DNA of 61,674 bases from Candidatus Kaiserbacteria bacterium (GCA_016217975.1 JACRFH010000028.1:1-61674), one strand, 5' to 3'; positions 29,264-46,758 are shown, counted from the first letter of the stretch. Numbers and translations are program-made. The notes: generated by a model from the sequence alone, not told the origin.

Positions 29264-29745
29264 CTGATCTGGCCCAAAGGGCTCACGGTGATCTCCGATG
29301 TCTTGCTCTCACCCGAAAGTGTGATCGTGATCGGGCCCGACGTCGTTGCAGAGAGCTGCGTAAATATGAAGTCGCCGTTAAATGAATGAGTGACATTTAC
29401 ATCCGTCTCGAACGAAGAATTCATCTCGTCCCCCGCATCGTATACAGCGCCCTGAAAGAGAATATATTTGTCGGGCTGAATATGGACACCGTGCGGTTTG
29501 CCATCTTCGCAATCGCTTCCATAACATAGATTATTGATCGCCTGCGCGCGAGCGCGCTGGAGAAGCGCAAGCAAGAGATCCCGATCCGAATGATATGTGG
29601 CACCTCGATATGATTCCATGCTCACAAGCAGCCCAAAACTGCTTATAATCACAAACATTCCCATCACGAGGAGCACTTCGATCAGAGTGAACCCATTCCC
29701 CATATATGGACATGGCATGTCCATAAATTGCTTGGAACGAGACAT
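29251..29745 (-). CDS. Prepilin-type minor pilin (GspH/FimT-like)
   Basis: YMGNG-FTLIEVLLVMGMFVII is a class III signal. Confidence 0.7.
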   Translation of the reverse strand: MSRSKQFMDMPCPYMGNGFTLIEVLLVMGMFVIISSFGLLVSMESYRGATYHSDRDLLLALLQRARAQAINNLCYGSDCEDGKPHGVHIQPDKYILFQGAVYDAGDEMNSSFETDVNVTHSFNGDFIFTQLSATTSGPITITLSGESKTSEITVSPLGQISWTN

Positions 29746-29747
29746 AC

Positions 29748-34439: not shown

Positions 34440-35732
34440 TCAAAACGCACCGACGCCCTTGGGTGAGCCGAGGCCTGTGGGGCCGTCGAATCCTGCCGTG
34501 GCAGTGCAGAGATACGAACCTCCGCAGCTGCCGTTGCTCCCGCTTACGATGTCGTGGAGATTGCTTGAATTTCCAAGCGTATATGGGATTTGGTTGGCAT
34601 TTCCAGAAGTATTGCCAGAGAGCGCATAGACTGCGGCTATGATGGGAGAAGAGAGACTCGTCCCTCCCACTTGCCACCATCCCGACTGGCCAAAGTAGTT
34701 CACGCTGTCGTACACTGCCGCGCCGGTATTTGGATCCGCAACGGCCGAGACATCCGCATTTGTGCGGCGCGCGCAACCCGTATCCGTCTGCCAGGATTGT
34801 TTTGCTTCAAACGCGCTGCATCCGCTTCCGGCACCGCTCCACGTCAGCTCGCTATTATACGAGCCGTCGGAATTAAGGAACAAGCTCGTACCGCCGACGG
34901 ACGTCACGTAGCGCGAGGACGCGGGGTACTCGGCACCATAGCCACTATCTCCCGATGAGACGGTAAACGCGACTCCTGGGCGATTGAAATGGTGATCGTA
35001 TGACGTTTCGCCCGAAAACTCATTGGAGCCGTACGAATTTGAAACGACGTTTGCACCAAGTGCGACCGCGCGATCCACCGCCGTCATCATATTGCTGTAG
35101 CTTGAAGAGTCGGCCTCGACGAGAAGTATGCTGCAATTCTGACACATGGCGTGCGCCACCTCCACATCGAGCGCAATCTCAAGCGCCCAGCCAGCATTTG
35201 TGCGTGGGTAGCGAGTGCCTCCTCGCTGATCTACTTTCTTGAAACACGGCACGGCAGAGTTTGCAATCGCGCCTGCGCACGCGGGCAATTTTGGAATACC
35301 AAACGTGGTGCTATAGGTATCGAGATCGCTTTGGATATTGGGATGATTATACGCATCCACGATCGCGATGATCTTTTTACTTCCCGCAATTCCGTTCACG
35401 CCGTACGCACTGCGCAATTGCGCGGGGCCATAGCCGGCAATGATCTTTGATGAGGCACGCGGCGTAAGTCCCGCGTCTGCAATTACGCGCGCGTTGCAGT
35501 GCGTCTCGCCATCTGCTGCGTCGGTGCATACCGCCACGTGCGGATTGAAACGTACGCCAAACCTGCTCTCGATATCCAGTCGCGCAAACTGCTCCTGATC
35601 CCTCTCTGAAACCGCATCTTGCCGCGCCTGCATCCGATCAGCCACCCTCCCCGCGACATCGGCAAAGGCAGCCATGCCAAAAAGCAGTGTCGTCAGAGCT
35701 ATGCCCGAGGCAACTATGCCCTTTTTGCTCAT
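34440..35732 (-). CDS. Secreted S53 (sedolisin/kumamolisin-like) serine peptidase with pro-domain
   Basis: Signal peptide, SGDSGYG, and catalytic-Ser box GGTSLSSPIIAAVYAL. Start moved to MSKKGIVAS. Confidence 0.8.
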   Translation of the reverse strand: MSKKGIVASGIALTTLLFGMAAFADVAGRVADRMQARQDAVSERDQEQFARLDIESRFGVRFNPHVAVCTDAADGETHCNARVIADAGLTPRASSKIIAGYGPAQLRSAYGVNGIAGSKKIIAIVDAYNHPNIQSDLDTYSTTFGIPKLPACAGAIANSAVPCFKKVDQRGGTRYPRTNAGWALEIALDVEVAHAMCQNCSILLVEADSSSYSNMMTAVDRAVALGANVVSNSYGSNEFSGETSYDHHFNRPGVAFTVSSGDSGYGAEYPASSRYVTSVGGTSLFLNSDGSYNSELTWSGAGSGCSAFEAKQSWQTDTGCARRTNADVSAVADPNTGAAVYDSVNYFGQSGWWQVGGTSLSSPIIAAVYALSGNTSGNANQIPYTLGNSSNLHDIVSGSNGSCGGSYLCTATAGFDGPTGLGSPKGVGAF

Positions 35733-35888
35733 GTCTGTATGGTACCACAAGTCGCCCTATCTTGTAATCCAACTCTTGTTCTTAACTGTAAAGAGCGCGT
35801 ACACGCTCATCCCAGGGGGAGAAGATATGCATAGCGCAGGAGCCGAAACGGGCCCAAAGAAAGGACCCGGATCGGGATATCACCCGTA

Positions 35889-36357: not shown

Positions 36358-36759
36358 TTAGAAGAAGCTGAAAAAGCTGCGCAGGCGCACCCACAGGCTT
36401 ATGAAGAAATTGACGTGGGCGGTAGTGGAGGCCGCCTGGACATCGATAGTAGTACTCGCTTGTGTACCTTGAGCTGCATCGAGGGGCAAAACGGTGGGCG
36501 CTTGTATCGGCGGCTTGGTAATGATCGTGGCGCTGTGGACAACGCCGTCGGAGGCAGCGCGAATCTCGATCTTGCCCGAATCACCATCGAGCATTGTATG
36601 GATTTCTGCATCAGCGTCTGAATTTCCGGTGACCGTCACCTGCCCCGACGAGACCTGACCGCCGGTATTAGTATCGCCGTAGTTTTGCACGACCAGCGCG
36701 GAAACCGCGACAGGAAATACGAGTGCAAACCCCGCAAAGAGAGTTCCTATTTTTTGCAT
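36358..36759 (-). CDS. Small secreted protein, weak member of the shared-module family
   Basis: Signal peptide (FALVFPVAVSA), then GGQVSSGQVTVTGNSDADAEIHT. Hydrophobic-basic C-terminus FFISLWVRLRSFFSFF. Confidence 0.55.
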   Translation of the reverse strand: MQKIGTLFAGFALVFPVAVSALVVQNYGDTNTGGQVSSGQVTVTGNSDADAEIHTMLDGDSGKIEIRAASDGVVHSATIITKPPIQAPTVLPLDAAQGTQASTTIDVQAASTTAHVNFFISLWVRLRSFFSFF

Positions 36760-36825
36760 ACCCCCACCCTACCATATCAGTGACGCGCGGCAAATTTGGG
36801 TTTACGAAACCCAAATTCTTTCACG

Positions 36826-37305
36826 TTAGCGTACCTGAAAACCGCGAATGATGATAAGCGTGGAATTGAGCCGGTTGACGGAATTCGAAACGGAGCTCGT
36901 ATTGCCCGAATTTACCGTCCCGCCGGTCTCGCCCGTGCCTCCGTCGCCGCCACTCCCAGCTAACGCTCCACCGTTATTGTTGCTGGAAGGAACAGGCGGA
37001 ACTATGTTAGTCGCATCGGAATTGCTATTGGGTGGTGCCACACCATCTGCGCCTTGTGGGCCAGCGGGTGGTGTCGTATTGCCGCCCGAATTTGCGCTTG
37101 CACCGGTAGAATTCCCGGGGTCAGTGTGTGCGAAGGGATCCCGAGGGACGACGGGACGCACGGGAATGAGCGGAGTGGTGCTGGTCACTTTTGGCACGAC
37201 GGTAACGGAGATTGCAAAAGCCGATGCTGGAGTCGTGAGCATCGCGGAGATCGCGACTACCGCAGAGACCAAACTGAAGAGCGAAACGCGGGAATATAAT
37301 TTCAT
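36826..37305 (-). CDS. Small secreted Gly/Asn/Pro-rich protein with C-terminal shared module
   Basis: Start moved to MKLYSRVSLF (signal peptide). The C-terminus is NNNGGALAGSGGDGGTGETGGTVNSGNTSSVSNSVNRLNSTLIIIR. Confidence 0.6.
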   Translation of the reverse strand: MKLYSRVSLFSLVSAVVAISAMLTTPASAFAISVTVVPKVTSTTPLIPVRPVVPRDPFAHTDPGNSTGASANSGGNTTPPAGPQGADGVAPPNSNSDATNIVPPVPSSNNNGGALAGSGGDGGTGETGGTVNSGNTSSVSNSVNRLNSTLIIIRGFQVR

Positions 37306-37337
37306 AGATGTTGCCGATAATTTATAATGTGCCGCTA

Positions 37338-40300
37338 TCAGTGGGATTTCGAGAACCAACCGCCAATAGCATTGAGAATATTTTTGTTGTCTTTTGCGTT
37401 TGCTTTCGTCGTTTGCGGTTTTGCGGGAACTTTTGGTTTCGCAATGGGGATTGCCGCAGCTGCGGGCATAGCACTTCCGGTAGTCTTCAGAGTTGAGGTG
37501 GCGGGAGATGCAGGAGGGATGGATTGTGTCGAAGGAGGAACTCCGCCGCACGCGAGGATATTAATCTTCTTGATCGTCGAGGCGTATACGCTTCCCGTCG
37601 GTGATTTCAAACCCAGCGGCTTCAAAATATCTGCGGCATATTTGGTCTGGAATGCGCGCACGGCCGCAAGAGTGAGCGTCCCAAAGAAGCCGCTTGTGGG
37701 AAGCTTGGTACCTATGGTGTTGTTGAGGAAGGTCTGCAATTTCGTCACCTGCGCCCTGTTGGTAGAGCCCATTTGGAGATTGCTGGTGATGAGCGCCTCG
37801 CATCCCCCCGAAGAAGAGTGGCCGGTATTTGAAGTCGAAACGCCCAATACTTTTCCTCCCGCAAATATCTGCACGTCATTGGATGCATCAAAAGGTTTGA
37901 GGAAGGTCGCGTCGCTCGTTGAATCAGGATTTCCCCGCGTGCCGGTGACTTCGGCCACGTTGTGATATACACCCGGCGTCGAACTTGCAGAAAATTCCAT
38001 CGTATAGGTCACCGTTATCTGATCGCCGGGAGCTACCGTGTCGAGCGCCCACTGATGTTGTGAACGTACGCTTCCCGCCGGATCATAGAGCGTGTCGGTG
38101 AGGACGCCATGATAGAGCGCGCCTGCGCTACTGTCGTTACTTACAACCACGGTGTAGTCCACCTTGGTGGGGAGTGTCGAGGTGGAGATGCTCGAGGTCT
38201 TGGTCACCGTCATTTTTGGATCTGCGGACCATCCGAGTGCATTGTTTGAGAAACCTCCCGCTACAATTCCACCCCCGCCTGCTGAACCAGAAGAACCGGT
38301 GTCTCCGGTGTTTGCAGTTTCGGTATTGGTACTCGCACCTCCGCCGCCTTGCCCAGTGCCCTCTGAACCGGAAGGACTGCCTCCGCCCCCTCCGCCCGAG
38401 CTCGAAACCGGCGGGCCTCCACCACCCGAGGAACCACTACCGCTTGAGCCGCCCGATGTGGGACTTGTCCCACCACCCGAAGTGCCAGAGCCTGCGCTTG
38501 AAGAAGTTCCCCCGCCCGAACTACCGCTCGCAGGCGGAGAAGAAAATCCGACCGGGAGGTTGATCGTCGCCGTATTGTTGCTTGAATCCTGATCATGCTG
38601 GTCCGACCCGGTGCCGACCGATGCCACAAGCGGTGCCGTCACGAAGCCACTCGAAGTAAGACCCGGCGCAAACACGCGCGCCGATGCGTCGATTGTCACG
38701 GTCGCACCTGGCGCGAGCGTGCCCAGATTCCACTGTATTCCCGAGGGAATACTAGTGAAGCGAACCGTGCTTCTCCCGAAGACAAGAAGATTTGCATTAA
38801 ACGCCGCCTGCAGTGTCGCCGTATTTGCGGCAACATCGCCGATATTTTGGACGGTGAAATGATACGTGACGTCAGTGCCCGGAGCGGTCGGATTGGGCGC
38901 ATCGACGGTGGCCGTCACTTTGAGATCGGGGCTGTGGCCGCCGAAATCGATATCGCCGTTCCAATCGCCCGCGATGTTGAAGACAGCAAACATGAAATTG
39001 CGATTCACGACATTGGTGTTGACCATGTTCACGACATTGGCGCTCGCATACGCATCACCCGTTTTGATTTTTGCGGCGCCATCCTCCACCTGTGCCGTGT
39101 TTGCGCCGGTTTCGGCCCACACATTGACGTCGGTATTCACGATCGCTTTATTTGTCGACGACGCAATGAAGTTCGCCGAATTATAGATACCTTGCGAGCC
39201 CTGCGTCGAATTGACCGCGCCGTTGCTATAGACCTCGACACCATAGTCGGTGCGGCGCCAGCTCATGCCTTCGGGAAGACCCTTCACCGTGCCGCGCCAT
39301 GCTCCCGAGACGTGGAAGACGAAGAGCGCCGATGAGCCTCCCACATGCGTTTGGTTGGCGGCGGTGAAGCTATTGGATGACGTGTGCGCGGTGCCAGTCG
39401 TTATCTCGCCGTGCCCGAGAGCGGTCGAAGTCGCGACGTTTTGCCCGGTGATCGCGTTTGCGGTCGTGGTGCCGGTAAATGTTTCGTTGTTGTTGTTTTG
39501 CACGATGTACGAGCTCGAGTTCAGATCGGGCAGCGTATTTCCCTTCTCAAAGAACGATCTAAAGAAATTCGCATCTGGAAGAACGATGTCGCCTTGCATG
39601 TCGCCGAAATTATCAAATGATGAAACGAGGTATTTCGAATTGATGAAATTCGTGTTGACGAGGTTGAGTACTCCGGCAGATGCGTAAGCGTTGCCGGTCT
39701 GCATATCTATATTGCCTGCGCGCGTCGAGGTCGCCGAGTTGCGACCGGTCGCCGCGCGTACCTCTACGATATTGTTGACCGTTCCCTCATTTTTGTTGAG
39801 TATTTGCAGCGTCGCGCTATTGAGACACGTGAGAATGGTACAGCCGAGCTGTGTCGGGCTTGCGCCTACTCCTCCGCCGATGAGGTAGGAGAGATCAGCA
39901 GCGCGCAGATCAAGACTGTCGCTCCCTTGCGGCTTCAGAAACAAGACTAGTCCCTTGGAATTGAAGAAATTAGTGTTGACGACGTTTAAGACTTGCGCGG
40001 AAGCGTTTGCCGATCCCGTGTGCACCGTAGAGTCGCCTTCTCCTCCCTCTCCCTTGTTCTCACCGGTAAATGCGATCGTCTCGTCGCTCGTGGTGACGAC
40101 GCCGGCATTCTCCGTATCGGCGGTAATCCTTGAGCTGTTGGTCGCGCCCGGCCCGTCAATGCTCGAGCGTGTGATGTTGAGAATGTTGCTCACCGTCGTC
40201 GAGGCAACTGCGCTTCCGGTAAATATGGTGCCGCCGATTTTGGCTCCGGTGCCATCGGTCGAGGTCGCAACTTTAAACAAAGGATCGATCGCGAGCGCTT

Positions 40301-41084
40301 CTGTCGAAGTCGCGCTTGCGTCTAAGACGGGCCGTGTGTCGTTTGGTCCCGGAAGCGGCGGGCCACTCGTCACATTCTGAAAATCCGTGTTGTCGGTATC
40401 GGACTGGCCCGTGGGCACGACACCAGAACCCGTGGAAGCAGTCGAGGCCGTATTCGGATTGCCAGGATCTGCCGTGGGAGTTGAGCCGCTTCCTCCGGTC
40501 GGAGGTGTGGACGTGGCACCCGAGGTTGGCGGCGTCGACGATGCCGATCCAGAACCCGGATCGGTCGGCGGCGTACTCGTCGCGGTTGGCGCAGTTGATG
40601 TCGCAATCGGCGGCGTGGTTGTCGACGCGCCGGAATCTGGAGGGGTTGATGTTGCACTTCCCGAATCCGGTGGTGAGATTGGTGTGGGATCTATATAAGA
40701 AACGATGACATTAAATGTAACGGGTATCGCGGCATTACTTGCCGCATCTGCGGCTGTGCAGGTGACGAGTGTAGTCCCGACTGGAAAATTCGAATCGGAT
40801 CCGGGTGAGCACAAGGCAACACCGGGTGGATCAATGTTGTCGGACGTAGCCGGCGCCACATATGAGACCACAATGCCCGTCGAGGACGCGGCGGTCACGC
40901 TTATGTCGCTCATGCTTGCGATCACCGGAGGAGTGATATCCGTGTGTGCATCAATCGCCGCCTGGAGCCTCTCGGAGACCTGGTCGGCACTGGTGATTAC
41001 GGGAGAAAGAGGACTGTAGACAAGAACCGTCACCAGAAGTGCGGCGAGAGTCCGAGCTATTGGTGTTGACAGATGTTTGTTCAT
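37338..41084 (-). CDS. Giant (1248 aa) surface protein: HYR-like domain, Pro/Thr linker, five shared modules, DUF11-like domain, Gly/Ser tract, second Ig-like domain, peptidoglycan-binding domain
   Basis: Signal peptide. HYR-like PPVIASMSDISVTAASSTGIVVSYVAPATSDNIDPP. Modules such as TGDAYASANVVNMVNTN. DUF11-like PDLKVTATVDAPNPTAPGTDVTYHFTVQNIGD. PG_binding_1-like NRAQVTKLQTFLNN...AVRAFQTKYA. Confidence 0.75.
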   Translation of the reverse strand: MNKHLSTPIARTLAALLVTVLVYSPLSPVITSADQVSERLQAAIDAHTDITPPVIASMSDISVTAASSTGIVVSYVAPATSDNIDPPGVALCSPGSDSNFPVGTTLVTCTAADAASNAAIPVTFNVIVSYIDPTPISPPDSGSATSTPPDSGASTTTPPIATSTAPTATSTPPTDPGSGSASSTPPTSGATSTPPTGGSGSTPTADPGNPNTASTASTGSGVVPTGQSDTDNTDFQNVTSGPPLPGPNDTRPVLDASATSTEALAIDPLFKVATSTDGTGAKIGGTIFTGSAVASTTVSNILNITRSSIDGPGATNSSRITADTENAGVVTTSDETIAFTGENKGEGGEGDSTVHTGSANASAQVLNVVNTNFFNSKGLVLFLKPQGSDSLDLRAADLSYLIGGGVGASPTQLGCTILTCLNSATLQILNKNEGTVNNIVEVRAATGRNSATSTRAGNIDMQTGNAYASAGVLNLVNTNFINSKYLVSSFDNFGDMQGDIVLPDANFFRSFFEKGNTLPDLNSSSYIVQNNNNETFTGTTTANAITGQNVATSTALGHGEITTGTAHTSSNSFTAANQTHVGGSSALFVFHVSGAWRGTVKGLPEGMSWRRTDYGVEVYSNGAVNSTQGSQGIYNSANFIASSTNKAIVNTDVNVWAETGANTAQVEDGAAKIKTGDAYASANVVNMVNTNVVNRNFMFAVFNIAGDWNGDIDFGGHSPDLKVTATVDAPNPTAPGTDVTYHFTVQNIGDVAANTATLQAAFNANLLVFGRSTVRFTSIPSGIQWNLGTLAPGATVTIDASARVFAPGLTSSGFVTAPLVASVGTGSDQHDQDSSNNTATINLPVGFSSPPASGSSGGGTSSSAGSGTSGGGTSPTSGGSSGSGSSGGGGPPVSSSGGGGGGSPSGSEGTGQGGGGASTNTETANTGDTGSSGSAGGGGIVAGGFSNNALGWSADPKMTVTKTSSISTSTLPTKVDYTVVVSNDSSAGALYHGVLTDTLYDPAGSVRSQHQWALDTVAPGDQITVTYTMEFSASSTPGVYHNVAEVTGTRGNPDSTSDATFLKPFDASNDVQIFAGGKVLGVSTSNTGHSSSGGCEALITSNLQMGSTNRAQVTKLQTFLNNTIGTKLPTSGFFGTLTLAAVRAFQTKYAADILKPLGLKSPTGSVYASTIKKINILACGGVPPSTQSIPPASPATSTLKTTGSAMPAAAAIPIAKPKVPAKPQTTKANAKDNKNILNAIGGWFSKSH

Positions 41085-41187
41085 GTTTCCCTCTATGAGG
41101 ACTCCTTTGGGATCCGGATGGGCCGTCCTTTTACCACAAACAAGACCTCATGAGAAGGAAGGATCATTGTCTGATCCTTCCTTGCTT

Positions 41188-41622
41188 TTATCGCGCACGT
41201 GCGGCTCCCGGCGCTATACAACCCGATGTTCGCGCATCACATTGGGGTGCAGGCGTGGGAGCTGGCGCAGGAGGTGGCGGATCGTCCGCAGGAGCGGGAG
41301 GATCGTTCACGGGACCGGTATTTGTCTCATGCACGTCGACAGTCTGATCGCCAGTGGTGACTGTGCCGCCAGTGTTTCCACCCGAATTTACGCTACCGTC
41401 GGTCGTCGATGTGATACCTCCCGATGGAGGCGGTCCGCCAGCTGGCGGATTAGGTGGCGTCGCGGGAGTCGATGGCACAGGGGAAGAGCTTACCGGTGCG
41501 CTCTGCAGGGTAGCGCGAAGATCAGAGCGCAGATCCGCAAATGCAGAGAATGCCGGCGACAACACCGCCCCGATCACGACTGCCAAGATTGCTGCGCGCA
41601 TACGTGTGTTTTGGGTGTTCAT
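41188..41622 (-). CDS. Small secreted Pro-rich protein with one shared module
   Basis: Signal peptide (AVVIGAVLSPAFSAFA). Module NSGGNTGGTVTTGDQTVDVHETNTG. Pro-rich tail with two Cys. Confidence 0.55.
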   Translation of the reverse strand: MNTQNTRMRAAILAVVIGAVLSPAFSAFADLRSDLRATLQSAPVSSSPVPSTPATPPNPPAGGPPPSGGITSTTDGSVNSGGNTGGTVTTGDQTVDVHETNTGPVNDPPAPADDPPPPAPAPTPAPQCDARTSGCIAPGAARAR

Positions 41623-41818
41623 AATTGTTTTATCGCAAGCGCTCCATGTATGCGTTTAGTGCCGTCCATCCTTGCGCGGCGTCCCGGTGAACTGCCGGGA
41701 GTGGTGGAAGACTCACACAAACCGCGGCAGATGCTGCAAGCGGAGAGAGCGCAATAAGAACCGTGGTACTGATCGCAAATCCTTTGATTGCTGACGCCAT
41801 AAAAAGATGTGACTTGAA

Positions 41819-42301
41819 TTAACGAAGACTAATGCGCACGATATTGGCGTTGATCACGTTGAGTGCGGTCGCGTTAGTTACCACGCTCCCTGCTCTCACC
41901 AGTCCTCCGGGAGAGGCATTGCCGCCGTTGCCGCCGTTGCCGCTCGAGGGGCCGCCGTTGTTGTCGTTACCATTTTCATTCCCATCACCATTGGGATTTA
42001 CTGGGATTGCGTTCGGATTATTTTGAGATGGTTCGTTCGTGTTGCCATCATTACCTCCTGCATTACTGTGAGATGGAGGAGTATCATCGGGCCTGCCACC
42101 GCGAGTACTCGCGAGCGTAAGATGCGCAAGAAGATCGCTCGCAAGATTGGCGTGAACTATCCCCTGCGACTGCCCACCAAGAGCGCGTGCGAGTGCGTTA
42201 CCACCACCGAGTGCCGCATTTGATTCCGCACTCGCCGCAAGCGGAGAGAGTGTGAGAAGTACTGTCGTGCCGGTAACTAGTGCCTTGAGTGTTTTTTTCA
42301 T
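41819..42301 (-). CDS. Small secreted Gly/Asn-rich protein with C-terminal shared module
   Basis: Signal peptide (TVLLTLSPLAASA). The C-terminus is DNNGGPSSGNGGNGGNASPGGLVRAGSVVTNATALNVINANIVRISLR. Confidence 0.6.
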   Translation of the reverse strand: MKKTLKALVTGTTVLLTLSPLAASAESNAALGGGNALARALGGQSQGIVHANLASDLLAHLTLASTRGGRPDDTPPSHSNAGGNDGNTNEPSQNNPNAIPVNPNGDGNENGNDNNGGPSSGNGGNGGNASPGGLVRAGSVVTNATALNVINANIVRISLR

Positions 42302-42505
42302 ACTGATTTCGAATTTGTCTTCCCTGAAAGCTGGAAGCTGATAACTGAAAGCTAGTAATGGTTCCCTCTCTGAAGTCTCGTTTCCACGCCCTTCAACTTT
42401 GTTCAGGGTAAAAAGACCTCATGAGAAGGAGGGATAAAACTCGAGCGAGCGATATCCCTACCTTCTTCAGTTCCCGATTCCTTGGGCCTGATACGTCAGA
42501 TCAAA

Positions 42506-43225
42506 CTAGATGCGAACACGAATCATGGACGTGTTCAACATGTTGATCGTTCCTGCAGTCGAAGAGGCTGCTCCAGTGCCGATTGTGCCACCGAGACCAC
42601 CTGCTCCACCTGCCCCGCCAGTGCCAGCATGGGCACCGCCGTTGTTCTCGCTGCCTACGCCACCGTCAACGACGCCGCCGTTGCCAGCTGCACCACCGGT
42701 CGAGCCATCTGCCGTGTTCTCGCCTGTGCGAGCCTTGGCGCGTGTGTCGTTATCGATGTGGTTCTGGGTCGGATACTGTCTGCTGTTATCCGTGGTGACA
42801 TCAAGAGTCAAGCTGTTGATATCGCCGCAACCGCAGTCCCCGAGGTCAACACCAGTGTCGGTGTTGTTGAGGTCATTGGAGGTTCCAGCCGTTGCCGTCG
42901 CGTCACCTGTTGTGACGAGTCCGCCAGCACCGCCGTTGCCGCCGTTGCCGCCGTTGCCGCCGAGTGCACCGCCGTTGTTTTCAGAGCCGTTCGACGTTAC
43001 ATCGCCGCCCTGACCGCCTGTACCGCCCGTGCTTCCGCCGGCTGTGTTGTCGCCAGTGTGTGAGCGAGCAGAGGTCGTGTTGTCGATCGAACCACGGTTT
43101 GTGGTCGTGATCGTGATGTGTGTGGAATTCACAGCCGCAAACGCAGGAGCTGCGAATGCGAATGTTCCCATAGACGTAGCAACCATAGTTGCGATTGCTG
43201 CCGCCTTTCTGAGTGAGTTTGTCAT
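42506..43225 (-). CDS. Secreted Gly/Asn-rich protein with two copies of the shared module
   Basis: Start moved to MTNSLRKAAAIATMV (signal peptide). Internal duplication: SHTGDNTAGGSTGG...LVTTGDATATAGTSNDLNNT and ARTGENTADGSTGG...TIGTGAASSTAGTINMLNTSMIRVRI. Confidence 0.65.
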   Translation of the reverse strand: MTNSLRKAAAIATMVATSMGTFAFAAPAFAAVNSTHITITTTNRGSIDNTTSARSHTGDNTAGGSTGGTGGQGGDVTSNGSENNGGALGGNGGNGGNGGAGGLVTTGDATATAGTSNDLNNTDTGVDLGDCGCGDINSLTLDVTTDNSRQYPTQNHIDNDTRAKARTGENTADGSTGGAAGNGGVVDGGVGSENNGGAHAGTGGAGGAGGLGGTIGTGAASSTAGTINMLNTSMIRVRI

Positions 43226-43385
43226 ATCGATTTTATTCGTTATGTGTTTTGTAATGAATAAGTTCCTGAAAGAGGCGCTTGCACACCTCCTGCAGGTATC
43301 GACCATTAATGTGGGCTGGAGCCCACGACGCGATCTCCCTAGTCCAACCACGTCGTGTGCTTCACTTTTTAATTTTTCCTTCTAA

Positions 43386-43427
43386 AGAACAAACAAAAAC
43401 AGCGAACCGCGGAATACGCTTCGCTGT
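43386..43427 (-). terminator. Intrinsic terminator (minus strand) inside the 5' region of gene 42506..43225
   Basis: Stem AACAGCGAA / TTCGCTGTT (43397..43405 and 43419..43427) with an inner GCG/CGC extension, followed on the minus strand by TTTTTGTTTGTT. Confidence 0.6.
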
Positions 43428-43552
43428 TCACACTTTCTTTATTTCTCCTGCGGTCATAATTAACCGCTGGTTCCCCTTGCCCCGTGACAACGCAGTTGTT
43501 TTACGGGGCTTGTTGCTTCTTCGCCTTTTCGGGCGCGCACGCAACGTTTTGG

Positions 43553-43580
43553 GATTATCACTCGTCTGGCACACAAGTCA
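43553..43580 (-). promoter_or_regulatory. Candidate sigma70-type promoter (minus strand)
   Basis: On the minus strand: TTGACT (43580..43575), a 16-nt spacer, then GATAAT (43558..43553). Confidence 0.4.
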
Positions 43581-43624
43581 ATGAAATAGTGAGAGAAAGG
43601 CGCATTGCGCAGGTCTCTTGACTT

Positions 43625-43653
43625 CCTGTCAAAGAAAATCTCCCGTGCTATAA
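43625..43653 (+). promoter_or_regulatory. Candidate extended -10 promoter (plus strand)
   Basis: TGcTATAAT at 43645..43653 with a weak -35 CTGTCA at 43625..43630 (17-nt spacer). No plus-strand CDS lies downstream. Confidence 0.45.
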
Positions 43654-43659
43654 TTTCCC

Positions 43660-43881
43660 TCCAAACGAAGATACGGATTCGAAGTGGATCCAAAACCTAG
43701 GGAAACCAGCGAAAGCTGATCGGTCTTGGATCCGCTTCGGAGCCCTACCAAAGAAAGTCCGTACAAAAGGACCTTAATCGACCGGCATCCTATATGAAGA
43801 AGTGGGGGTGTCAATTTCTTTTCGTTGCGTAGTATGACGGAGGTACGGCACAAAAATGGCAAGGTTCAACCTTGCCATTTT
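43660..43881 (+). ncRNA. Candidate ~220-nt structured ncRNA of unknown class
   Basis: Bounded by the promoter above and by the REP-A2 hairpin plus T-run. Internal helices: GGATCCAA/TTGGATCC (43685..43692 / 43725..43732), CAGC-GAAA-GCTG (43706..43717), GTCC/GGAC, and a closing CCTCC/GGAGG (43657..43661 / 43838..43842). No convincing ORF. Confidence 0.35.
43855..43877. repeat. REP-A palindrome copy 2, bidirectional terminator
   Basis: AAAAATGGCAAGGTTCAACCTTGCCATTTTT, 29 nt downstream of the minus-strand stop at 43906. Confidence 0.9.
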
Positions 43882-43905
43882 TGTGCGGTTAGTTCGTAAT
43901 ATATT

Positions 43906-46758
43906 TTACTCGCAATTCACCAAAGAATTCGAGCCGCTCCCGGGATTACAGCTATCGATCCCTGGTCCGCCATTGATTGCGTCATTTCCTGTGCCAGTCG
44001 TCACTGTGTCGTTACCTCCACCCGCATTCACGGCGTTCTGTCCATTTCCGGCATTAATGATGTCGCTCCCGCCACCAGTTTTGATGGTATCGTTTCCATT
44101 TCCCGTCGTGATCGTGTGATTGCCATCACCTGTCGAGATCGTGTTGTTGCCATTACCCGTGCTGATGAATGCATTGCCATCTCCGGTTTTGATTGTATTT
44201 TGCCCACCGAGAGCATCAATTGTGGCATTCCCAGAGCCCAGAGTGATGATGTCATTTCCTGCTCCGGTGCACACGATATAATCCCCCGTGCCTGCCTTTA
44301 CGACGTCGTTGCCGCCATTGCCTTTAAACATCGTAAACGGGACGAGTGTGACGATGTCGTTTCCGGGAGAACCATTCCGGAGAGTGTAGCCCGTGGGCGG
44401 TGCTGAAAGAGTACAGGCGTTCGCCGGAGGCGGCGGAGGCGGGCATGGAGTGTTCCACACGACCACCCATTTATTCACGGTAATGTTGCCGAAATTCGGG
44501 ATCAAGGTATGCGGCGTCCCCGCTTGAGCTTGCGCGAGCGTATTTCCCGTGGTGTAACCCACAAGCTTGAATTGCTGGCCGTTTGCGCAATTGGGGCCGA
44601 CGACCGGAGTCGTTGTGTCTTCATTCGTTGTATAGCTCGATCCGTTGGTCATGTCGGAAGTCACCGCTTCATACGCATTCGGTGTATTGAATCCAATAGT
44701 GCTCAAAGCATAATTACCGCTTCCCGCGCCGCCGAGATTCACCGCATTCCAGCTAGCCGTCATCGGGAAAGCTGCGCTACCAGCATTCCCTGCGGTTGCA
44801 TGCACGCCACTGATATTTTTAACAATCGTCACTTTGACATCCTTGCCGTTTACGAACGTGCAGATAACTTCGTCGCCGCTGTGTACCGTGATCTGCTCTC
44901 CACCCGCGATTGGTGTGCCAATGCTCTGATTTTCGTACACGCACGAGACGCTCTTGAAAGTCCATCCTGCGGGAGGCGTGAGTTCGTTGACGTCATACGT
45001 TCCTGGATTGAGTGACATCGGCGAAGATGTCGCCCAGCCATTTACGGTCGTGAGTGCGGGGACCGCGGGATTCATGGGACCAGTAACTGTGAAGTTGAAT
45101 GTGTCATTGCCATTGAGCGTCTTTTTGACAATCGTAAGAGTTGCTGGCGGGCACGTTTTGTTCCAAACGATTACGTATTTGTCGCTCGTGATATTTGTGA
45201 AGCTTGGGATGGTCGAGGTCGAAGGAGTCCCGGACTGCGCATCGGAAAGCGTCTCTCCCGTGGTGTAGCCCTCGAGCGCAAACGGCTTGTCTTCGGCACA
45301 GCTCGCGCCGACGACCGACTCACTGGTCACTTCATGCGTCGCGTAATCCGAGCCAGCATTAGCATTTGCAAACGATGCCTCGTAGGCCGGATCGCTTCCC
45401 CATCCGGCAGGCCCCAGGGTAAACGGCGCGTCCACCGCATTGCCATACGTAACGGAATTAAACGTGGTGAGCATCGGGAAGTCGGAATTGTTGCCGCTTG
45501 CGATAGTCGCATGCGCGCCGTCGATGTATTTCTCGATCTTCACCGTAATCGGTGGGAGTGGCCCGTTGCATGGGCCCGCAAGATCTGATGTCGTGAGCCA
45601 CGGCGTGTAGTCGATGGTGACGCTCGTGCCGACCGAATCGCCCGAGCCTGGGCCGATAGGCCCGGGACCGCTCGAAGAGCCCCACCAGTTGCACTCGGCG
45701 TTTATCGATTCAGTGCCGCTATATGCGATGCCTTTTGCGTTGCCGGCGATGCTGTTGCGGTTTATGACGTTTGTCGAGATTGTTCCTGCCGCCTGACCCG
45801 CCGAGAGGAAGATGCCTTCGCCACTTTGCGTAGCGCCATTTCCGATAAACGTATTGAGAGTGATTGTGTCTCGCTGTCCACCCCGATCTACAGCCGTATT
45901 GCCAAAGGAGGTAAGTTCAAGTCCGCCTCGACCGTTTCCGTCGAAGGTATTGTTGGTGATCGTGGTGTCCTGAATGCCGCCCTGCAAACCAGGGAACGAG
46001 TTGTTTTTGAAGGTATTGCCGGAAATATCGCCGAATCCGAACGCTCGTGAGCCGAGATTTGCGCCGGTGACATTGGCCTGGAACAAATTGCCGGTCATCT
46101 TCGGTGAGCGCGGCGTCGCGCTTATACCGACATTGTGATTGCCGTCGACGAAGAAGCCTGTCGCGTGTCCATTAACGACGTTGTTGTTGGTAAACCAAAG
46201 TCCTGCGAAACTGTCAGTGTCCAAGTGAACGACATCACCACTCCCCGTTTGCGAAATGCCGTCAATTTCATTCTTGTCGATGTTGATGTCTTTGCCGCTG
46301 TCGTTGAGGAACATTCCGTTGCCGGTAAATCCTATGATGCGATTGTTGAGAATGCTCAAGCCGTCGAGCGGTCCGCTAGTCGAAAGAATGCTTTGCGCGC
46401 CGCCCGAGATCGTGAAGCCGTCGACAGTCGCCCCCGCAGAACCCGTCACCAGTGTGATACCCGCCCCGGAGACCGGAGCAATGATGGATTCGCTTGCAAC
46501 ACGTCCGCGCGCGTCAACGCCGTTTTGCGCGCCTTTCAGATTCACCGAGCGATTGAGTGTAATATTTTCTGCATACGTGCCAGCTGCCACATTTATCGTC
46601 GTGCATCCCGCGTCATTTATCGCGTCTTGGATCGTCGCATAATCGCCGGGCACACTGCACGTAGGCCCTGCCGCGAGAGTGACCCCTGCGTACGCGAGAA
46701 GTGCGAAAGCGATAAGGCTGATAAGCGGGGCTACCTTCGAGGGAATCGAAGTATGCAT
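43906..46758 (-). CDS. Secreted 950-aa protein: right-handed parallel beta-helix (pectate-lyase/NosD-like) repeats, two prealbumin/SpaA-like domains, C-terminal Gly-Asp nonapeptide (RTX-like) repeats
   Basis: Signal peptide. Beta-helix repeats include NNRIIGFTGNGMFLND, NNVVNGHATGFFVDG and NTFKNNSFPGLQGG. SpaA-like TLTIVKKTLNGNDTFNFTVTG...GTYDVNELTPPAGWTF. The C-terminus carries more than 10 repeats of the GxGNDxI type. Confidence 0.7.
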   Translation of the reverse strand: MHTSIPSKVAPLISLIAFALLAYAGVTLAAGPTCSVPGDYATIQDAINDAGCTTINVAAGTYAENITLNRSVNLKGAQNGVDARGRVASESIIAPVSGAGITLVTGSAGATVDGFTISGGAQSILSTSGPLDGLSILNNRIIGFTGNGMFLNDSGKDINIDKNEIDGISQTGSGDVVHLDTDSFAGLWFTNNNVVNGHATGFFVDGNHNVGISATPRSPKMTGNLFQANVTGANLGSRAFGFGDISGNTFKNNSFPGLQGGIQDTTITNNTFDGNGRGGLELTSFGNTAVDRGGQRDTITLNTFIGNGATQSGEGIFLSAGQAAGTISTNVINRNSIAGNAKGIAYSGTESINAECNWWGSSSGPGPIGPGSGDSVGTSVTIDYTPWLTTSDLAGPCNGPLPPITVKIEKYIDGAHATIASGNNSDFPMLTTFNSVTYGNAVDAPFTLGPAGWGSDPAYEASFANANAGSDYATHEVTSESVVGASCAEDKPFALEGYTTGETLSDAQSGTPSTSTIPSFTNITSDKYVIVWNKTCPPATLTIVKKTLNGNDTFNFTVTGPMNPAVPALTTVNGWATSSPMSLNPGTYDVNELTPPAGWTFKSVSCVYENQSIGTPIAGGEQITVHSGDEVICTFVNGKDVKVTIVKNISGVHATAGNAGSAAFPMTASWNAVNLGGAGSGNYALSTIGFNTPNAYEAVTSDMTNGSSYTTNEDTTTPVVGPNCANGQQFKLVGYTTGNTLAQAQAGTPHTLIPNFGNITVNKWVVVWNTPCPPPPPPANACTLSAPPTGYTLRNGSPGNDIVTLVPFTMFKGNGGNDVVKAGTGDYIVCTGAGNDIITLGSGNATIDALGGQNTIKTGDGNAFISTGNGNNTISTGDGNHTITTGNGNDTIKTGGGSDIINAGNGQNAVNAGGGNDTVTTGTGNDAINGGPGIDSCNPGSGSNSLVNCE

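What the first reader, a model, noticed from the sequence alone, without database searches (positions are those of the whole stretch)
36358..43225. Same-strand cluster of secreted Gly/Asn-rich proteins sharing a short module with a 1248-aa wall-binding giant: candidate undescribed surface-fibre or matrix system
Six consecutive minus-strand genes all carry signal peptides and a recurring ~25-40-aa module that I cannot assign to a named family.

**Module shape.** An optional NNGG...GNGG.GG Gly/Asn run, then G-G-[TL]-V-x-[TSA]-G-[DNS]-[AT]-x-[AST]-x-[AST]-x-x-x-N-x-[LVI]-N-[TAN]-[TN]-x-[IV].

**Examples.**
- Giant protein: GDSTVHTGSANASAQVLNVVNTNFFN, GNIDMQTGNAYASAGVLNLVNTNFIN, HGEITTGTAHTSSNSFTAANQTHVG, AAKIKTGDAYASANVVNMVNTNVVN, GGTIFTGSAVASTTVSNILNIT.
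- 42506..43225 (two copies): GGLVTTGDATATAGTSNDLNNTDTG and GGTIGTGAASSTAGTINMLNTSMIRVRI.
- 41819..42301: GGLVRAGSVVTNATALNVINANIVRISLR.
- 36826..37305: GGTVNSGNTSSVSNSVNRLNSTLIIIR.
- 41188..41622: GGTVTTGDQTVDVHETNTG.
- 36358..36759 (weaker): GQVTVTGNSDADAEIHT.

In three of the small proteins the module is the extreme C-terminus and ends in an alternating hydrophobic strand. In the giant, three modules are preceded by a second element ([AEFI]TG-x-N-x-A), and two of those are followed by an Asp/Gly box (FGDMQGDI, AGDWNGDIDF).

The Asn/Gly/Ala-rich, strand-turn-strand look recalls stacked beta-solenoid or functional-amyloid repeats (curli CsgA GxGNxA repeats, chaplins) without matching them.

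**Inference.** The small proteins may be polymerising or capping subunits. The giant, with HYR-like, DUF11-like and peptidoglycan-binding domains, may be the cell-wall-attached base or a self-contained version.
Basis: partly seen in the sequence, partly recalled or inferred. Interest (0 to 1): 0.8.

Follow-up and report, generated by a model that had tools for sequence, protein, structure and literature searches.

The report
Conserved CPR surface-protein module gene cluster
Six neighbouring genes of an uncultivated Kaiserbacteria (CPR) bacterium encode secreted proteins built from one previously undescribed beta-rich module, in a gene arrangement conserved across dozens of related genomes and preceded by a conserved structured RNA control region, which makes it a strong but functionally untested candidate for a major cell-surface structure of these tiny bacteria.

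Summary
The six minus-strand genes exist. Each product has a Sec-type N-terminus. A shared module is real, not a composition effect.

- **Module.** Profiles built from relatives of the 239-aa protein (P6) hit P2, P5 and four sites in the 1248-aa giant. No local shuffle (0/300) and no other window ORF reaches these scores.
- **Homology.** A profile-profile comparison shows that P6 is a two-repeat miniature of the giant's 4.5-repeat domain (97.7%, E 1.8e-12). P4 is a probable member. P1 is only a possible one.
- **No known family.** Pfam, NCBIfam, PHROGs, PDB sequences and Foldseek give no match.
- **Synteny.** Across 80 metagenomic loci the order U713–P6–P5–P4–U950–giant–P2–P1 recurs. A small module protein sits upstream of the giant in 47/54 loci. 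All 191 labelled neighbours lie on the same strand.
- **Anchoring.** Some relatives carry sortase and LPXTG signals instead of a peptidoglycan-binding domain.
- **Best reading.** The giant is a wall-tethered, fibrillar-adhesin-like scaffold, and its secreted short paralogues co-assemble with it, as in the long/short chaplin or CsgB/CsgA logic. Co-assembly and amyloid character are inferred, not shown.
- **Unexpected extra.** A conserved, covarying regulatory RNA region lies upstream of P6 and is absent from Rfam.

The parts
42506..43225 (-). P6: 239-aa secreted protein with two full module repeats (aa 32-127 = 42845-43132; aa 136-239 = 42509-42820). A conserved Cys pair lies between the repeats. 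Gly positions in the GGN-type loops are invariant. The extreme C-terminus is ...N-x-L-N-T-x-x-x-R-V-R-[ILM].
   Evidence: Exact match to NCBI HY968_02320, Candidatus Kaiserbacteria. 95 homologous clusters, none with a Pfam domain. Alignment A1. hhalign vs the giant domain: 97.7%.
41819..42301 (-). P5: 160-aa secreted protein with one C-terminal module (aa 104-160 = 41822-41992) ending ...NIVRISLR.
   Evidence: 35 bits to the P6-derived HMM, 0/300 shuffles. Family vs P6 family: 97.6%. Orthologues sit in the same position in many loci.
41188..41622 (-). P4: 144-aa secreted Pro-rich protein. It carries a short, loop-less module variant (aa 66-107 = 41302-41427: GGITS.T.G.V.SGGNTGG.VTTGD..V.V.E.N.GP.N) and a C-terminal Cys pair followed by R-x-R.
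   Evidence: The best-conserved block of the family is the module. 25-27 orthologues lie upstream of giants. hhalign vs P6 family: 89%. The single-sequence HMM score is marginal.
37338..41084 (-). Giant, 1248 aa.
- Signal peptide.
- HYR domain (aa 48-128 = 40701-40943).
- Pro/Thr/Ser linker.
- Module domain: a half repeat plus four full repeats, aa 283-716 = 38937-40238. Individual repeats: 40170-40238, 39936-40139, 39576-39830, 39276-39524, 38937-39188.
- DUF11/CLIPPER (aa 720-842 = 38559-38927).
- Gly/Ser linker.
- Second DUF11-type domain (about aa 955-1060 = 37905-38222, position approximate).
- PG_binding_1-like domain (aa 1110-1149 = 37638-37757).
- Lys/Pro-rich tail.
   Evidence: Pfam. 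37 homologues of the module domain, none with a Pfam hit on that part. AF2 model pLDDT 74.7, pTM 0.70, all-beta. 146 of the best 150 library representatives cover the module region.
36826..37305 (-). P2: 159-aa secreted protein with one C-terminal module (aa 65-159 = 36829-37113) ending ...LIIIRGFQVR.
   Evidence: 38-39 bits to the P6-derived HMM, 0/300 shuffles. Family vs P6 family: 98%. P2-like genes lie between giant and P1 in L017, L018, L023 and L024.
36358..36759 (-). P1: 133-aa secreted protein with a possible degenerate module (aa 27-64 = 36568-36681) and a conserved aromatic, amphipathic C-terminal tail (...FFISLWVRLRSFFSFF).
   Evidence: The P1 family lies directly downstream of giants, or between P6 and the giant, in 24/34 loci that have both flanks. 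Relation to the module is inconclusive (hhalign 40-48%). The P1-family HMM weakly hits P4 (E 3e-4).
43226..43905 (-). Conserved non-coding control region upstream of P6. Elements in order along the minus strand:
- U950 terminator, 43849-43882.
- Promoter-like P0 (TTGACA-16-TAGGAT), 43787-43814.
- 81-nt hairpin, 43670-43749. Its apical CGCUGGUUUCCC (43700-43711) is complementary to GGGGAACCAGCG (43465-43476).
- Conserved promoter-like P1 (about 43603-43633).
- Conserved promoter-like P2 (TTGACT-16-GATAAT), 43554-43581.
- Small hairpin with a conserved AUG in its loop, 43448-43469.
- Intrinsic terminator, 43390-43427.
- Long hairpin, 43311-43365.
- Conserved GGUCGAU, 43295-43304.
   Evidence: nhmmer conservation in at least 20 loci. 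Covariation in the hairpin: 17 of 22 pairs, 0/500 shuffles. CM R1 hits once per locus in 31 loci, always 362-733 nt upstream of the P6-like start. Loop-leader duplex of 9-14 nt (11-14 in 25 of 26 loci) with compensatory changes. Promoters. Terminator and downstream hairpins covary. No Rfam match.
41134..41183 (-). 12-bp hairpin followed by a U-rich tail, directly after the P4 stop codon and before the giant's start. It may be a partial terminator separating P6-P5-P4 from the giant.
   Evidence: Sequence read directly. The hairpin was flagged by the scan. Conservation was not tested.
43906..46758 (-). U950: syntenic accessory secreted protein with a right-handed beta-helix, a SpaA_4 prealbumin-like domain and RTX repeats. 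It has no module.
   Evidence: Pfam. U950-like genes lie inside the cluster in many loci, often between P4 and the giant.
47053..49194 (-). U713: syntenic accessory protein with acidic double-disulfide repeats, DUF11, a PG_binding_1-like domain and a C-terminal TM helix. It usually lies at the upstream edge of the cluster.
   Evidence: Pfam and NCBIfam. Synteny.

Best explanation
This is a conserved cell-envelope locus of Patescibacteria. It occurs in Parcubacteria lineages such as Kaiserbacteria, Sungbacteria and Minisyncoccia, with divergent versions in Microgenomates. Its proteins are Sec-secreted and built from one undescribed beta-rich module.

**The module (shown).** Its order is:
1. A strand, N-x-x-x-[VI]-x-N-x-[VT].
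2. A turn, A-x-TG-x-N-x-A.
3. A variable loop. It is short in the giant and a conserved 30-40-aa GGN-type Gly/Asn loop in P6, P5 and P2.
4. G-x-[VI]-x-TG-x-A-x-A-x-x-x-x-N-x-x-N-[TN]-[NT], followed by a hydrophobic strand.

A Cys pair is often present between repeats.

**The proteins (shown).**
- The 1248-aa protein has the build of a wall-tethered fibrillar adhesin: HYR, then 4.5 modules at the distal end, then two CLIPPER/DUF11 stalk domains with flexible linkers, then a peptidoglycan-binding-like domain.
- P6 has two modules. P5 and P2 have one each, at the extreme C-terminus. P4 has a short variant. P1 perhaps has a degenerate copy. All five are free, secreted paralogues.

**Function (inferred).**
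- The short paralogues co-assemble with the module domain of the anchored protein, and with each other, to form a surface layer or fibre tethered to the wall.
- This is the same logic as long versus short chaplins, or CsgB versus CsgA.
- The short proteins end right after the strand that, in the giant, is followed by the FN-x-FGD-x-x-GDI-x-LP element. Their last strand could therefore be completed by a partner.
- P6 is probably the main, tightly controlled component. It has its own multi-promoter region and a structured leader with an internal terminator. A hairpin separates P6-P5-P4 from the giant.
For: - **Real homology beyond composition.**
- **Colinearity.** The two P6 repeats align with consecutive giant repeats. 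P6's Gly loops, and the giant's FGD..GDI element, appear as mutual insertions.
- **Extracellular location.** Signal peptides. HYR, DUF11 and PG_binding_1. DUF11/CLIPPER is an isopeptide stalk domain of fibrillar adhesins (bioRxiv 10.1101/2025.04.25.650565).
- **Conserved operon-like order** over 80 metagenomic loci and several MAGs: 47/54 loci with a small module gene upstream, and 191/191 labelled neighbours on the same strand.
- **Interchangeable anchors in relatives.** PG-binding domain, C-terminal TM helix, or LPATG/LAVTG with an adjacent sortase.
- **Variable repeat number in unanchored paralogues** (1, 2, and 4 or more).
- **The Gly loops are conserved, not a random linker.** P6 Gly-loop positions are invariant across 30 homologues.
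- **Dedicated regulation of P6.**
- **Precedent.** Anchored long chaplins with two domains and secreted short chaplins with one domain, with co-assembly tethering the layer (PMC5618241).
Against: - No direct evidence of any protein-protein contact or polymer.
- The AF2 model of P6 is poor (pLDDT 55). No multimer prediction was possible.
- The giant's module domain is predicted as one compact folded body (pTM 0.70), so it need not have an open, templating edge.
- P6 is hydrophilic (G 23%, T 15%, A 13%, N 10%), unlike chaplins.
- No chaperone, usher or secretin-like assembly factor is in the cluster.
- P1 is absent from about 30% of loci with both flanks. P5, P4 and P2 are each dispensable in some lineages.
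- PG_binding_1 is below Pfam's threshold in the window protein.
Confidence: 0.45

Rival explanations
1. The module is a ligand-binding (adhesive or lectin-like) domain. The giant is an ordinary fibrillar adhesin that presents it. The small proteins are independent soluble or loosely wall-associated binding factors, for example for host-cell surface polymers or an exopolysaccharide. They do not polymerise or dock onto the giant.
For: - The giant's architecture matches the fibrillar-adhesin scheme, with the module domain at the distal N-terminal end.
- CPR bacteria are thought to be episymbionts that need attachment factors.
- The module domain is predicted as a self-contained fold.
- A GT2 processive-type glycosyltransferase is syntenic in 11 other loci.
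Against: - It does not explain why 1-, 2- and multi-repeat unanchored copies are kept next to the anchored copy, on the same strand, in nearly every locus.
- It does not explain why the one-repeat proteins consist of little more than a signal peptide, a linker and a truncated module ending at the C-terminus.
Confidence: 0.3
2. A true functional amyloid: cross-beta fibres of P6, P5 and P2, nucleated by the giant, equivalent to curli, Fap or chaplin fibres.
For: - The composition is Asn/Gly/Thr-rich with strand-turn-strand repeats.
- The TG-x-N-x-A turn is reminiscent of curlin G-x-x-N-x-A.
- The nucleator-plus-subunit gene logic is present.
- The top (non-significant) Foldseek hits are CsgA 8c50 and FapC 9nqd.
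Against: - The Foldseek hits are meaningless (E 0.8-1.3, TM 0.06-0.13).
- There is no Curlin_rpt, chaplin or TasA match even at E up to 1.
- The predicted strands in the giant are long, 10-21 residues, rather than short solenoid rungs.
- The long conserved Gly loops are not a feature of known amyloid subunits.
Confidence: 0.12
3. The similarity is only low-complexity Gly/Asn/Thr composition in unrelated secreted proteins, and the cluster is a chance neighbourhood.
For: The proteins are compositionally biased. HMMER reports high bias terms.
Against: - 0/300 local-composition shuffles reach the observed scores.
- The compositionally similar U950 and U713 do not score.
- hhalign gives 97.7% with colinear repeats.
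- No other window ORF is hit.
- Synteny holds across 80 loci.
Confidence: 0.02

Closest known systems
Streptomyces chaplins (long ChpA-C and short ChpD-H; Pfam PF03777)
   Same: - One small domain occurs in multi-copy, wall-anchored 'long' proteins and in single-copy secreted 'short' proteins that co-assemble on the cell surface.
- There is a conserved Cys pair.
- Long forms are anchored by sortase in chaplins (PMC5618241). Module proteins in some relatives of this locus (L005, L007) are also sortase-anchored.
   Different: - There is no sequence match to the chaplin domain.
- The module here is larger (60-100 aa) and hydrophilic.
- The window's long form is anchored by a PG-binding-like domain and also carries HYR and CLIPPER domains.
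- No amyloid evidence exists.
Curli CsgA/CsgB and Pseudomonas FapC/FapB
   Same: - A subunit and an envelope-associated partner share the same imperfect strand-turn-strand repeat.
- Gly/Asn/Ala-rich turn motifs are present.
- The genes are adjacent.
   Different: - There is no Curlin_rpt match.
- CPR cells have no outer-membrane secretion apparatus.
- The motif spacing differs (TG-x-N-x-A vs G-x-x-N-x-A).
- The structural match is not significant.
Fibrillar adhesins with CLIPPER (DUF11) stalks
   Same: The giant has a signal peptide, a distal non-stalk domain, CLIPPER/DUF11 stalk domains and a wall-anchoring module.
   Different: - The distal domain is an undescribed 4.5-repeat module.
- There are only two stalk domains.
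- The adhesin is embedded in a conserved operon of short paralogues of its head domain. This is not a described feature of fibrillar adhesins.
Bacillus TasA/TapA-SipW fibres
   Same: A secreted major subunit plus a wall-associated accessory protein encoded in one operon in a monoderm (PMC5618241).
   Different: There is no camelysin/TasA fold signal and no dedicated signal peptidase in the cluster. The subunits here are repeat-based.
Attenuator leaders, antisense kissing-loop RNAs and invertible promoters (for the upstream control region)
   Same: - Promoter, then structured leader, then intrinsic terminator, then gene.
- A hairpin loop is complementary to a distant site.
- 12-14-nt inverted repeats flank promoters upstream of a surface-protein gene.
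   Different: - There is no Rfam family.
- The hairpin lies upstream of two of the three promoters.
- No recombinase was found among the window ORFs scanned.
- No locus has the promoter segment inverted (0 of 26).

Membership tests
Curli (CsgA/CsgB, Pfam Curlin_rpt) | Sequence match to the curlin repeat | tested here: not met
   Pfam hmmscan at E up to 1 gave no Curlin_rpt hit for any of the six proteins.
Curli (CsgA/CsgB, Pfam Curlin_rpt) | Beta-solenoid fold superposable on CsgA | tested here: not met
   Foldseek of the giant's module-domain model vs PDB: CsgA 8c50 at E 0.81, TM 0.06-0.07.
Curli (CsgA/CsgB, Pfam Curlin_rpt) | Cross-beta amyloid fibres (dye binding, SDS resistance) | not testable with these tools
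   Needs recombinant protein.
Chaplins (Pfam PF03777/DUF320) | Chaplin domain | tested here: not met
   No Pfam hit.
Chaplins (Pfam PF03777/DUF320) | Anchored multi-domain long forms plus secreted single-domain short forms | tested here: met
   Giant with 4.5 modules and an anchor. P6 with 2 modules. P5 and P2 with 1. This is a resemblance in architecture only.
Chaplins (Pfam PF03777/DUF320) | Sortase sorting signal on long forms | tested here: inconclusive
   Absent in the window's giant, which has a PG_binding_1-like domain instead. LPATG/LAVTG signals and an adjacent sortase are present in relatives L005 and L007.
Chaplins (Pfam PF03777/DUF320) | Hydrophobic, surface-active domain | tested here: not met
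   P6 composition is G 23, T 15, A 13, N 10, S 7, D 6 %.
TasA/TapA (camelysin fold, SipW) | Peptidase_M73/TasA domain and a SipW-type signal peptidase in the operon | tested here: not met
   No such Pfam hits in the cluster or its neighbours.
Fibrillar adhesin | Signal peptide | tested here: met
   N-terminal MNKHLSTPIARTLAALLVTVLVYSPLSPVITSA|D, hydropathy maximum 3.07 (heuristic).
Fibrillar adhesin | Stalk of repeated Ig-like or isopeptide domains | tested here: met
   DUF11/CLIPPER, two stretches, E 6.5e-15. DUF7507, E 1.8e-7. Only two copies.
Fibrillar adhesin | Cell-wall anchoring domain | tested here: inconclusive
   PG_binding_1 at 18.3 bits, below the 23-bit cut-off. Homologues P0004 and P0005 carry precomputed PF01471.
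Fibrillar adhesin | Known adhesive head domain | tested here: not met
   The head is HYR plus an undescribed module domain with no Pfam, NCBIfam or PDB match.
RTX beta-roll | GGxGxDxUx nonapeptide repeats (HemolysinCabind) in the Gly loops | tested here: not met
   HemolysinCabind hits only U950, none of the six proteins.
Any Rfam RNA family (upstream region) | Covariance-model match | tested here: not met
   Nothing at gathering scores. At E up to 10 there are only chance hairpin hits, and none covers 43670-43749.
Invertible promoter (inverton) | Inverted repeats flanking a promoter | tested here: met
   CGCTGGTTTCCC (43700-43711) and GGGGAACCAGCG (43465-43476) flank promoter-like P1 and P2.
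Invertible promoter (inverton) | Both orientations observed, and a recombinase present | tested here: not met
   0 of 26 loci carry the promoter in reverse orientation. No recombinase among the window ORFs scanned. Read-level data were not available.

The most novel reading that the evidence does not exclude
A Patescibacteria-wide surface polymer built by templated stacking, or strand complementation, of a new beta-module. A wall-anchored protein with 4.5 repeats would act as nucleator and tether. Secreted subunits with one or two repeats (P6 as the major one) would extend it. Production of the major subunit would be set by a new RNA switch: a hairpin loop pairs with the leader of the P6 mRNA upstream of a conserved attenuator. 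This would be the first defined surface-structure system, and the first dedicated regulatory RNA, specific to CPR bacteria.
Probability: 0.2. Interest if true: 0.85.

Novelty: new variant of a known kind. Interest (0 to 1): 0.65.

Why it matters
CPR/Patescibacteria make up a large share of bacterial diversity. They are mostly uncultivated and are thought to live attached to other cells, yet the proteins that form their surface are essentially unknown.

- **A concrete target.** This locus is conserved across many lineages and encodes only secreted proteins. It is built on a domain with no counterpart in Pfam, NCBIfam or the PDB, and it has its own elaborate control region.
- **What can now be tested.** It gives targets for metaproteomics, cryo-ET labelling, recombinant assembly assays and structure determination. 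It also makes the question 'what is the CPR cell surface made of and how is it regulated' directly testable.
- **Annotation.** The module and the small-protein families deserve family models, so that thousands of 'hypothetical proteins' can be annotated consistently.
- **The upstream RNA.** It is a candidate new cis-regulatory or antisense RNA class in a phylum from which few regulatory RNAs are known.

Tried and rejected
- **Genome scan with the P6 alignment.** The tool chose the Gly-rich stretch as its pattern and returned one short locus. The single genome-contig scan was lost this way.
- **Metagenome scan with the 32-sequence giant alignment.** A 10-sequence alignment worked.
- **AF2 of P6 with 30 homologues.** pLDDT 55, unusable, so it was not fold-searched.
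- **Foldseek of the giant-domain model.** Nothing significant against PDB or BFVD.
- **Profile searches of PDB sequences.** Nothing except Gly-linker artefacts.
- **PHROGs.** Nothing, so no phage link.
- **Representative-library search with A3.** 9222 hits. The profile also contained DUF11, so the counts at weak E-values are inflated by DUF11-only proteins. Only the statement that 146 of the best 150 cover the module region is used.
- **Cluster-member look-up.** Almost no names.
- **Literature searches** for CPR surface proteins, amyloids, adhesins or Kaiserbacteria. No description of this family. One query was malformed.
- **A first iterative-profile script timed out** and was rewritten.
- **RTX-type Ca-binding in the Gly loops** and **PGRS identity of the loops.** No Pfam hit in the window proteins. 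One distant relative, P0131, does carry PGRS repeats N-terminal to a P6-like part.
- **Sortase or exosortase-type signal at the C-terminal R-V-R-I.** Rejected because no TM segment follows it.
- **Lipoproteins.** Rejected because there is no lipobox Cys.
- **The long GTG-started ORFs 42506-43351 and 36826-37551** as true gene starts. Rejected because homologues start at the ATG in front of the signal peptide, and the P6 extension overlaps the conserved RNA leader.

Full report
**Source and gene set.** The 239-aa product of 42506-43225 is identical to NCBI protein HY968_02320 of a Candidatus Kaiserbacteria MAG on a 61,674-bp contig. The window is therefore a CPR/Patescibacteria chromosome piece. 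Its wider context is housekeeping: gyrA, S1, ftsA, ftsZ and type IV pilus genes. Six consecutive minus-strand ORFs lie at the coordinates given:
- P1, 36358-36759
- P2, 36826-37305
- the 1248-aa giant, 37338-41084
- P4, 41188-41622
- P5, 41819-42301
- P6, 42506-43225

All six begin with a basic n-region, a hydrophobic core and an AxA-type cleavage site. This is a heuristic; SignalP was not available.

**Is the module more than composition?**
- I built HMMs from an alignment of 30 P6 homologues (A1), leaving out the signal peptide. I then asked whether they find the other window proteins.
- They score P2 at 38-39 bits and P5 at 35 bits. They score the giant at aa 283-305, 353-373, 462-481 and 673-693, at 15-18 bits each.
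- None of 300 shuffles that preserve composition within 30-residue windows reaches these scores.
- The neighbouring Gly/Asn-rich proteins U950 and U713 behave like their own shuffles.
- Of 314 six-frame ORFs in the window, only cluster members are hit.

**Profile-profile comparison.**
- P6 family against the giant's central domain: 97.7% probability, E 1.8e-12.
- The two P6 repeats align colinearly with two consecutive giant repeats.
- The Gly-rich loops of P6, and the giant's S-x-YL...FN-x-FGD-x-x-GDI-x-LP element, appear as mutual insertions.
- P5 and P2 families against the P6 family: 97.6% and 98.0%.
- P4 is a probable member. The best-conserved block of its 22-member family is the quoted peptide, GGITS.T.G.V.SGGNTGG.VTTGDE.V.V..VN.GPTN. 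The hhalign value of 89% is partly due to aligned signal peptides.
- P1 is only possible (40-48%). Orthologues show a clearer copy, and the P1-family HMM weakly hits P4.

**Shape of the module.** It is larger than first described. Its order is:
1. A leading strand, N-x-x-x-[VI]-x-N-x-[VT].
2. A-x-TG-x-N-x-A.
3. A loop.
4. G-x-[VI]-x-TG-x-A-x-A-x-x-x-x-N-x-x-N-[TN]-[NT].
5. A hydrophobic strand.

A C-x(1-4)-C mini-loop often precedes a repeat. In P6 the Gly positions of the long GGN-type loops are invariant across homologues of 33-83% identity. The loops are therefore structural, not random linkers.

**Known families and structures.**
- Pfam (E up to 1), NCBIfam and PHROGs give nothing for the small proteins or for aa 251-720 of the giant. 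The same holds for divergent relatives.
- The giant carries HYR (aa 48-128), two DUF11/CLIPPER-type stretches, and a sub-threshold PG_binding_1.
- DUF11 was recently renamed CLIPPER. It was shown to be an isopeptide-bonded CnaA-like stalk domain typical of fibrillar adhesins (bioRxiv 10.1101/2025.04.25.650565).
- Profile searches of all PDB sequences find nothing real.
- AF2 with 32 homologues models the giant's module domain as an all-beta body of 4.5 repeats (pLDDT 74.7, pTM 0.70).
- Foldseek finds no significant neighbour in the PDB. The best hits are CsgA, FapC, a beta-helical antifreeze and an RTX block, at E of at least 0.8 and TM about 0.06. BFVD also gives nothing.
- The P6 model is unreliable (pLDDT 55).

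**How widespread, and is the neighbourhood conserved?**
- The giant's domain has homologues named from Sungbacteria, Minisyncoccia, Parcubacteria, Paceibacterota and Microgenomates MAGs.
- A profile search of 1.84 billion representatives returned 9222 hits. That count is inflated by the DUF11 part of the profile. Still, 146 of the best 150 cover the module region, at more than 480 bits.
- P6 has 95 homologous 90%-identity clusters of very uniform length.
- Five assembly contexts and 80 metagenomic loci fetched with the giant's domain were annotated with family HMMs. The recurrent order, always on one strand, is U713-like, P6, (P5), (P4), (U950-like), giant, (P2), P1.
- 47 of 54 loci with at least 1.5 kb of upstream flank have a small module protein upstream of the giant. 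In the seven exceptions, P4/U950-type genes or a P1-like gene lie in that flank instead, so a P6-type gene may sit beyond the contig end.
- 191 of 191 labelled neighbours share the giant's strand.
- P1-like genes are present in 24 of 34 loci with both flanks.
- Unanchored paralogues with four or more repeats also occur.
- In more distant lineages the anchor changes:
  - a C-terminal TM helix on the giant-like protein;
  - LPATG or LAVTG sorting signals on neighbouring module or DUF11 proteins, with an adjacent sortase (L005, L007).
- A GT2 glycosyltransferase (window 32272-33642) recurs in 11 loci, and a membrane-tethered CAP-domain protein (52204-53277) in 19.

**Most likely mechanism.**
- *Shown:* the proteins are homologous and secreted, their genes are co-conserved, and one member has wall-tethering and stalk domains.
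- *Inferred:* the short paralogues dock onto, or polymerise from, the module domain of the tethered protein to form a surface layer or fibre.
- The closest precedent is the chaplin system. Long chaplins with two domains are sortase-anchored. Short one-domain chaplins co-assemble with them, and a conserved Cys pair is present (PMC5618241).
- CsgB/CsgA and FapB/FapC follow the same nucleator-subunit logic.
- One point fits strand completion by a partner. P6, P5 and P2 end exactly after the strand that, in the giant, is followed by the FGD..GDI element.
- Arguments against:
  - There is no interaction evidence.
  - The giant's domain is predicted as a closed compact body.
  - The composition is hydrophilic.
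  - No assembly factor is encoded in the cluster.
- I put 0.45 on the co-assembly reading, 0.30 on independent binding proteins, 0.12 on a bona fide amyloid, and 0.02 on coincidence.

**Unexpected finding outside the given coordinates: overview.** The 680-nt spacer upstream of P6 (43226-43905) is conserved at nucleotide level in at least 20 loci whose proteins are only 40-80% identical. Along the minus strand it contains the elements below.

**Upstream hairpin.**
- The U950 terminator lies at 43849-43882.
- A promoter-like P0 (TTGACA-16-TAGGAT) lies at 43787-43814. Similar TTGACA...TAGTAT elements sit 9-64 nt upstream of the hairpin in about 20 of 29 loci.
- An 81-nt hairpin lies at 43670-43749.
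  - It folds at -41.9 kcal/mol, z = -4.7.
  - Of the 22 pairs of its long stem, 17 show compensatory changes.
  - For the tested structure (26 pairs, including a 4-bp inner helix), 92.5% of cells are paired, against 82% in shuffles and 27-50% when the partner is slid. No shuffle (0/500) reaches the observed value.
- A covariance model of the hairpin finds exactly one copy per locus in 31 loci. The copy is always on the gene strand. It lies 362-733 nt (median 470) upstream of the P6-like start.

**Loop-leader complementarity.**
- The apical CGCUGGUUUCCC (43700-43711) is complementary to GGGGAACCAGCG (43465-43476).
- A contiguous duplex of 9-14 nt exists in all 26 loci examined (11-14 nt in 25 of them).
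- Compensatory changes occur in L058/L059, L074, L070 and L079, and interior differences are G-U wobbles.
- Permuting the partners never reaches the observed mean length (0/200).
- Between the two sites lie two conserved promoter-like elements. One is a near-invariant TTGAC-17-GATAAT (43554-43581).

**Downstream leader.** After the leader site come:
- a small hairpin with a conserved AUG in its loop;
- a conserved intrinsic terminator (43390-43427; 9 of 12 pairs compensatory);
- a 22-bp hairpin (43311-43365; 16 pairs compensatory);
- a third hairpin (5 of 8 pairs compensatory).

**Reading of the control region.**
- Rfam has no match.
- I read this as an attenuator-type leader, modulated by an upstream hairpin RNA acting in cis or in trans.
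- The rival is a phase-variable invertible promoter bounded by the 12-14-bp inverted repeats.
- Against the rival: no locus has the inverted orientation (0/26). No recombinase was found among the window ORFs scanned. The left repeat sits inside a covarying hairpin. Neither reading is proven.
- With the hairpin after P4 (41134-41183), this suggests that P6(-P5-P4) is expressed separately from, and probably above, the giant. That would be expected for a major structural subunit.

**Verdict.**
'Undescribed, conserved, secreted module system with an anchored long form' is solid. 'Fibre, matrix or amyloid' is a reasonable but untested inference.
- The domain family is new to curated databases and to the PDB. 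The system-level logic resembles known anchored-long/secreted-short surface assemblies and fibrillar adhesins, so I rate it a new variant of a known kind.
- Interest is 0.65. The locus offers a concrete handle on the unknown CPR cell surface and comes with a candidate new regulatory RNA.

Noticed in passing
window 43226-43905 (minus strand); also L001 9302-10000 and about 29 other loci: A conserved, covarying non-coding control region lies upstream of P6. It holds an 81-nt hairpin (43670-43749). The hairpin's loop is complementary to a leader site (43465-43476) lying beyond two conserved promoters. A conserved intrinsic terminator (43390-43427) and two further covarying hairpins follow. It is not in Rfam. 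Candidate readings are a new attenuator or antisense RNA, or alternatively an invertible promoter.
   Followed up: yes
window 43448-43469 and downstream to about 43390: A conserved AUG sits in the loop of the small leader hairpin. It opens short ORFs of variable length and poorly conserved sequence (9 codons in the window: MTAGEIKKV). These run toward the leader terminator. The complementary GGGAAACCAGCG lies 10-15 nt upstream of this AUG, where a ribosome-binding site would be. Leader-peptide attenuation is possible.
   Followed up: partly
window 41134-41183: A 12-bp hairpin with a U-rich tail lies right after the P4 stop and about 50 nt before the giant's start. It may be a partial terminator that sets a P6-P5-P4 to giant expression ratio.
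   Followed up: no
window 43906-46758 and 47053-49194: Two large secreted proteins are conserved members of the same neighbourhood but lack the module. U950 has a beta-helix, SpaA_4 and RTX repeats. U713 has acidic double-disulfide repeats, DUF11, a PG-binding-like domain and a C-terminal TM helix.
   Followed up: partly
window 32272-33642, 34440-35750, 52204-53277, 53296-55110: - A GT2 processive-type glycosyltransferase recurs next to the cluster in 11 other loci.
- A membrane-tethered CAP/SCP-domain protein recurs in 19 other loci.
- An S8 peptidase recurs in at least two (L001, L057).
- A DsbD-thioredoxin fusion lies nearby, which may be relevant to the conserved Cys pairs of the module proteins.
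   Followed up: partly
L005 6667-12306; L007 8001-15723: In Microgenomates-like and other distant loci the module proteins come with a sortase gene. One neighbour carries LPATG or LAVTG plus a TM segment and a basic tail. The giant-like proteins end in a TM helix preceded by K-[VI]-N-L-[AG]-W.
   Followed up: partly
protein P0131 (366 aa, Logan contig of 1.6 kb): A P6-like two-repeat protein carries an N-terminal extension that matches Pfam PGRS repeats (E 8e-14). This hints that the GGN-type loops are related in style to PE_PGRS glycine repeats.
   Followed up: no
window 25686-32065: A type IV pilus block (PilB, PilC, several N_methyl prepilins and a 490-aa LVIVD-repeat prepilin-like protein) lies a few kb downstream on the same strand. 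PilB/PilC are adjacent to the cluster in only one other locus (L041), so the linkage is probably incidental.
   Followed up: partly
window 42506-43351 and 36826-37551: The longest ORFs for P6 and P2 start at upstream GTG codons and add 42 and 82 residues. Homologues begin at the ATG in front of the signal peptide, and the P6 extension overlaps the conserved RNA leader. These extensions are likely artefacts.
   Followed up: yes
window 33803-34420 (+) and 59790-61454 (+): A NYN-domain gene on the opposite strand interrupts the otherwise co-directional surface-gene region. An HNH_repeat (homing-endonuclease-associated) protein lies near the window's end.
   Followed up: no
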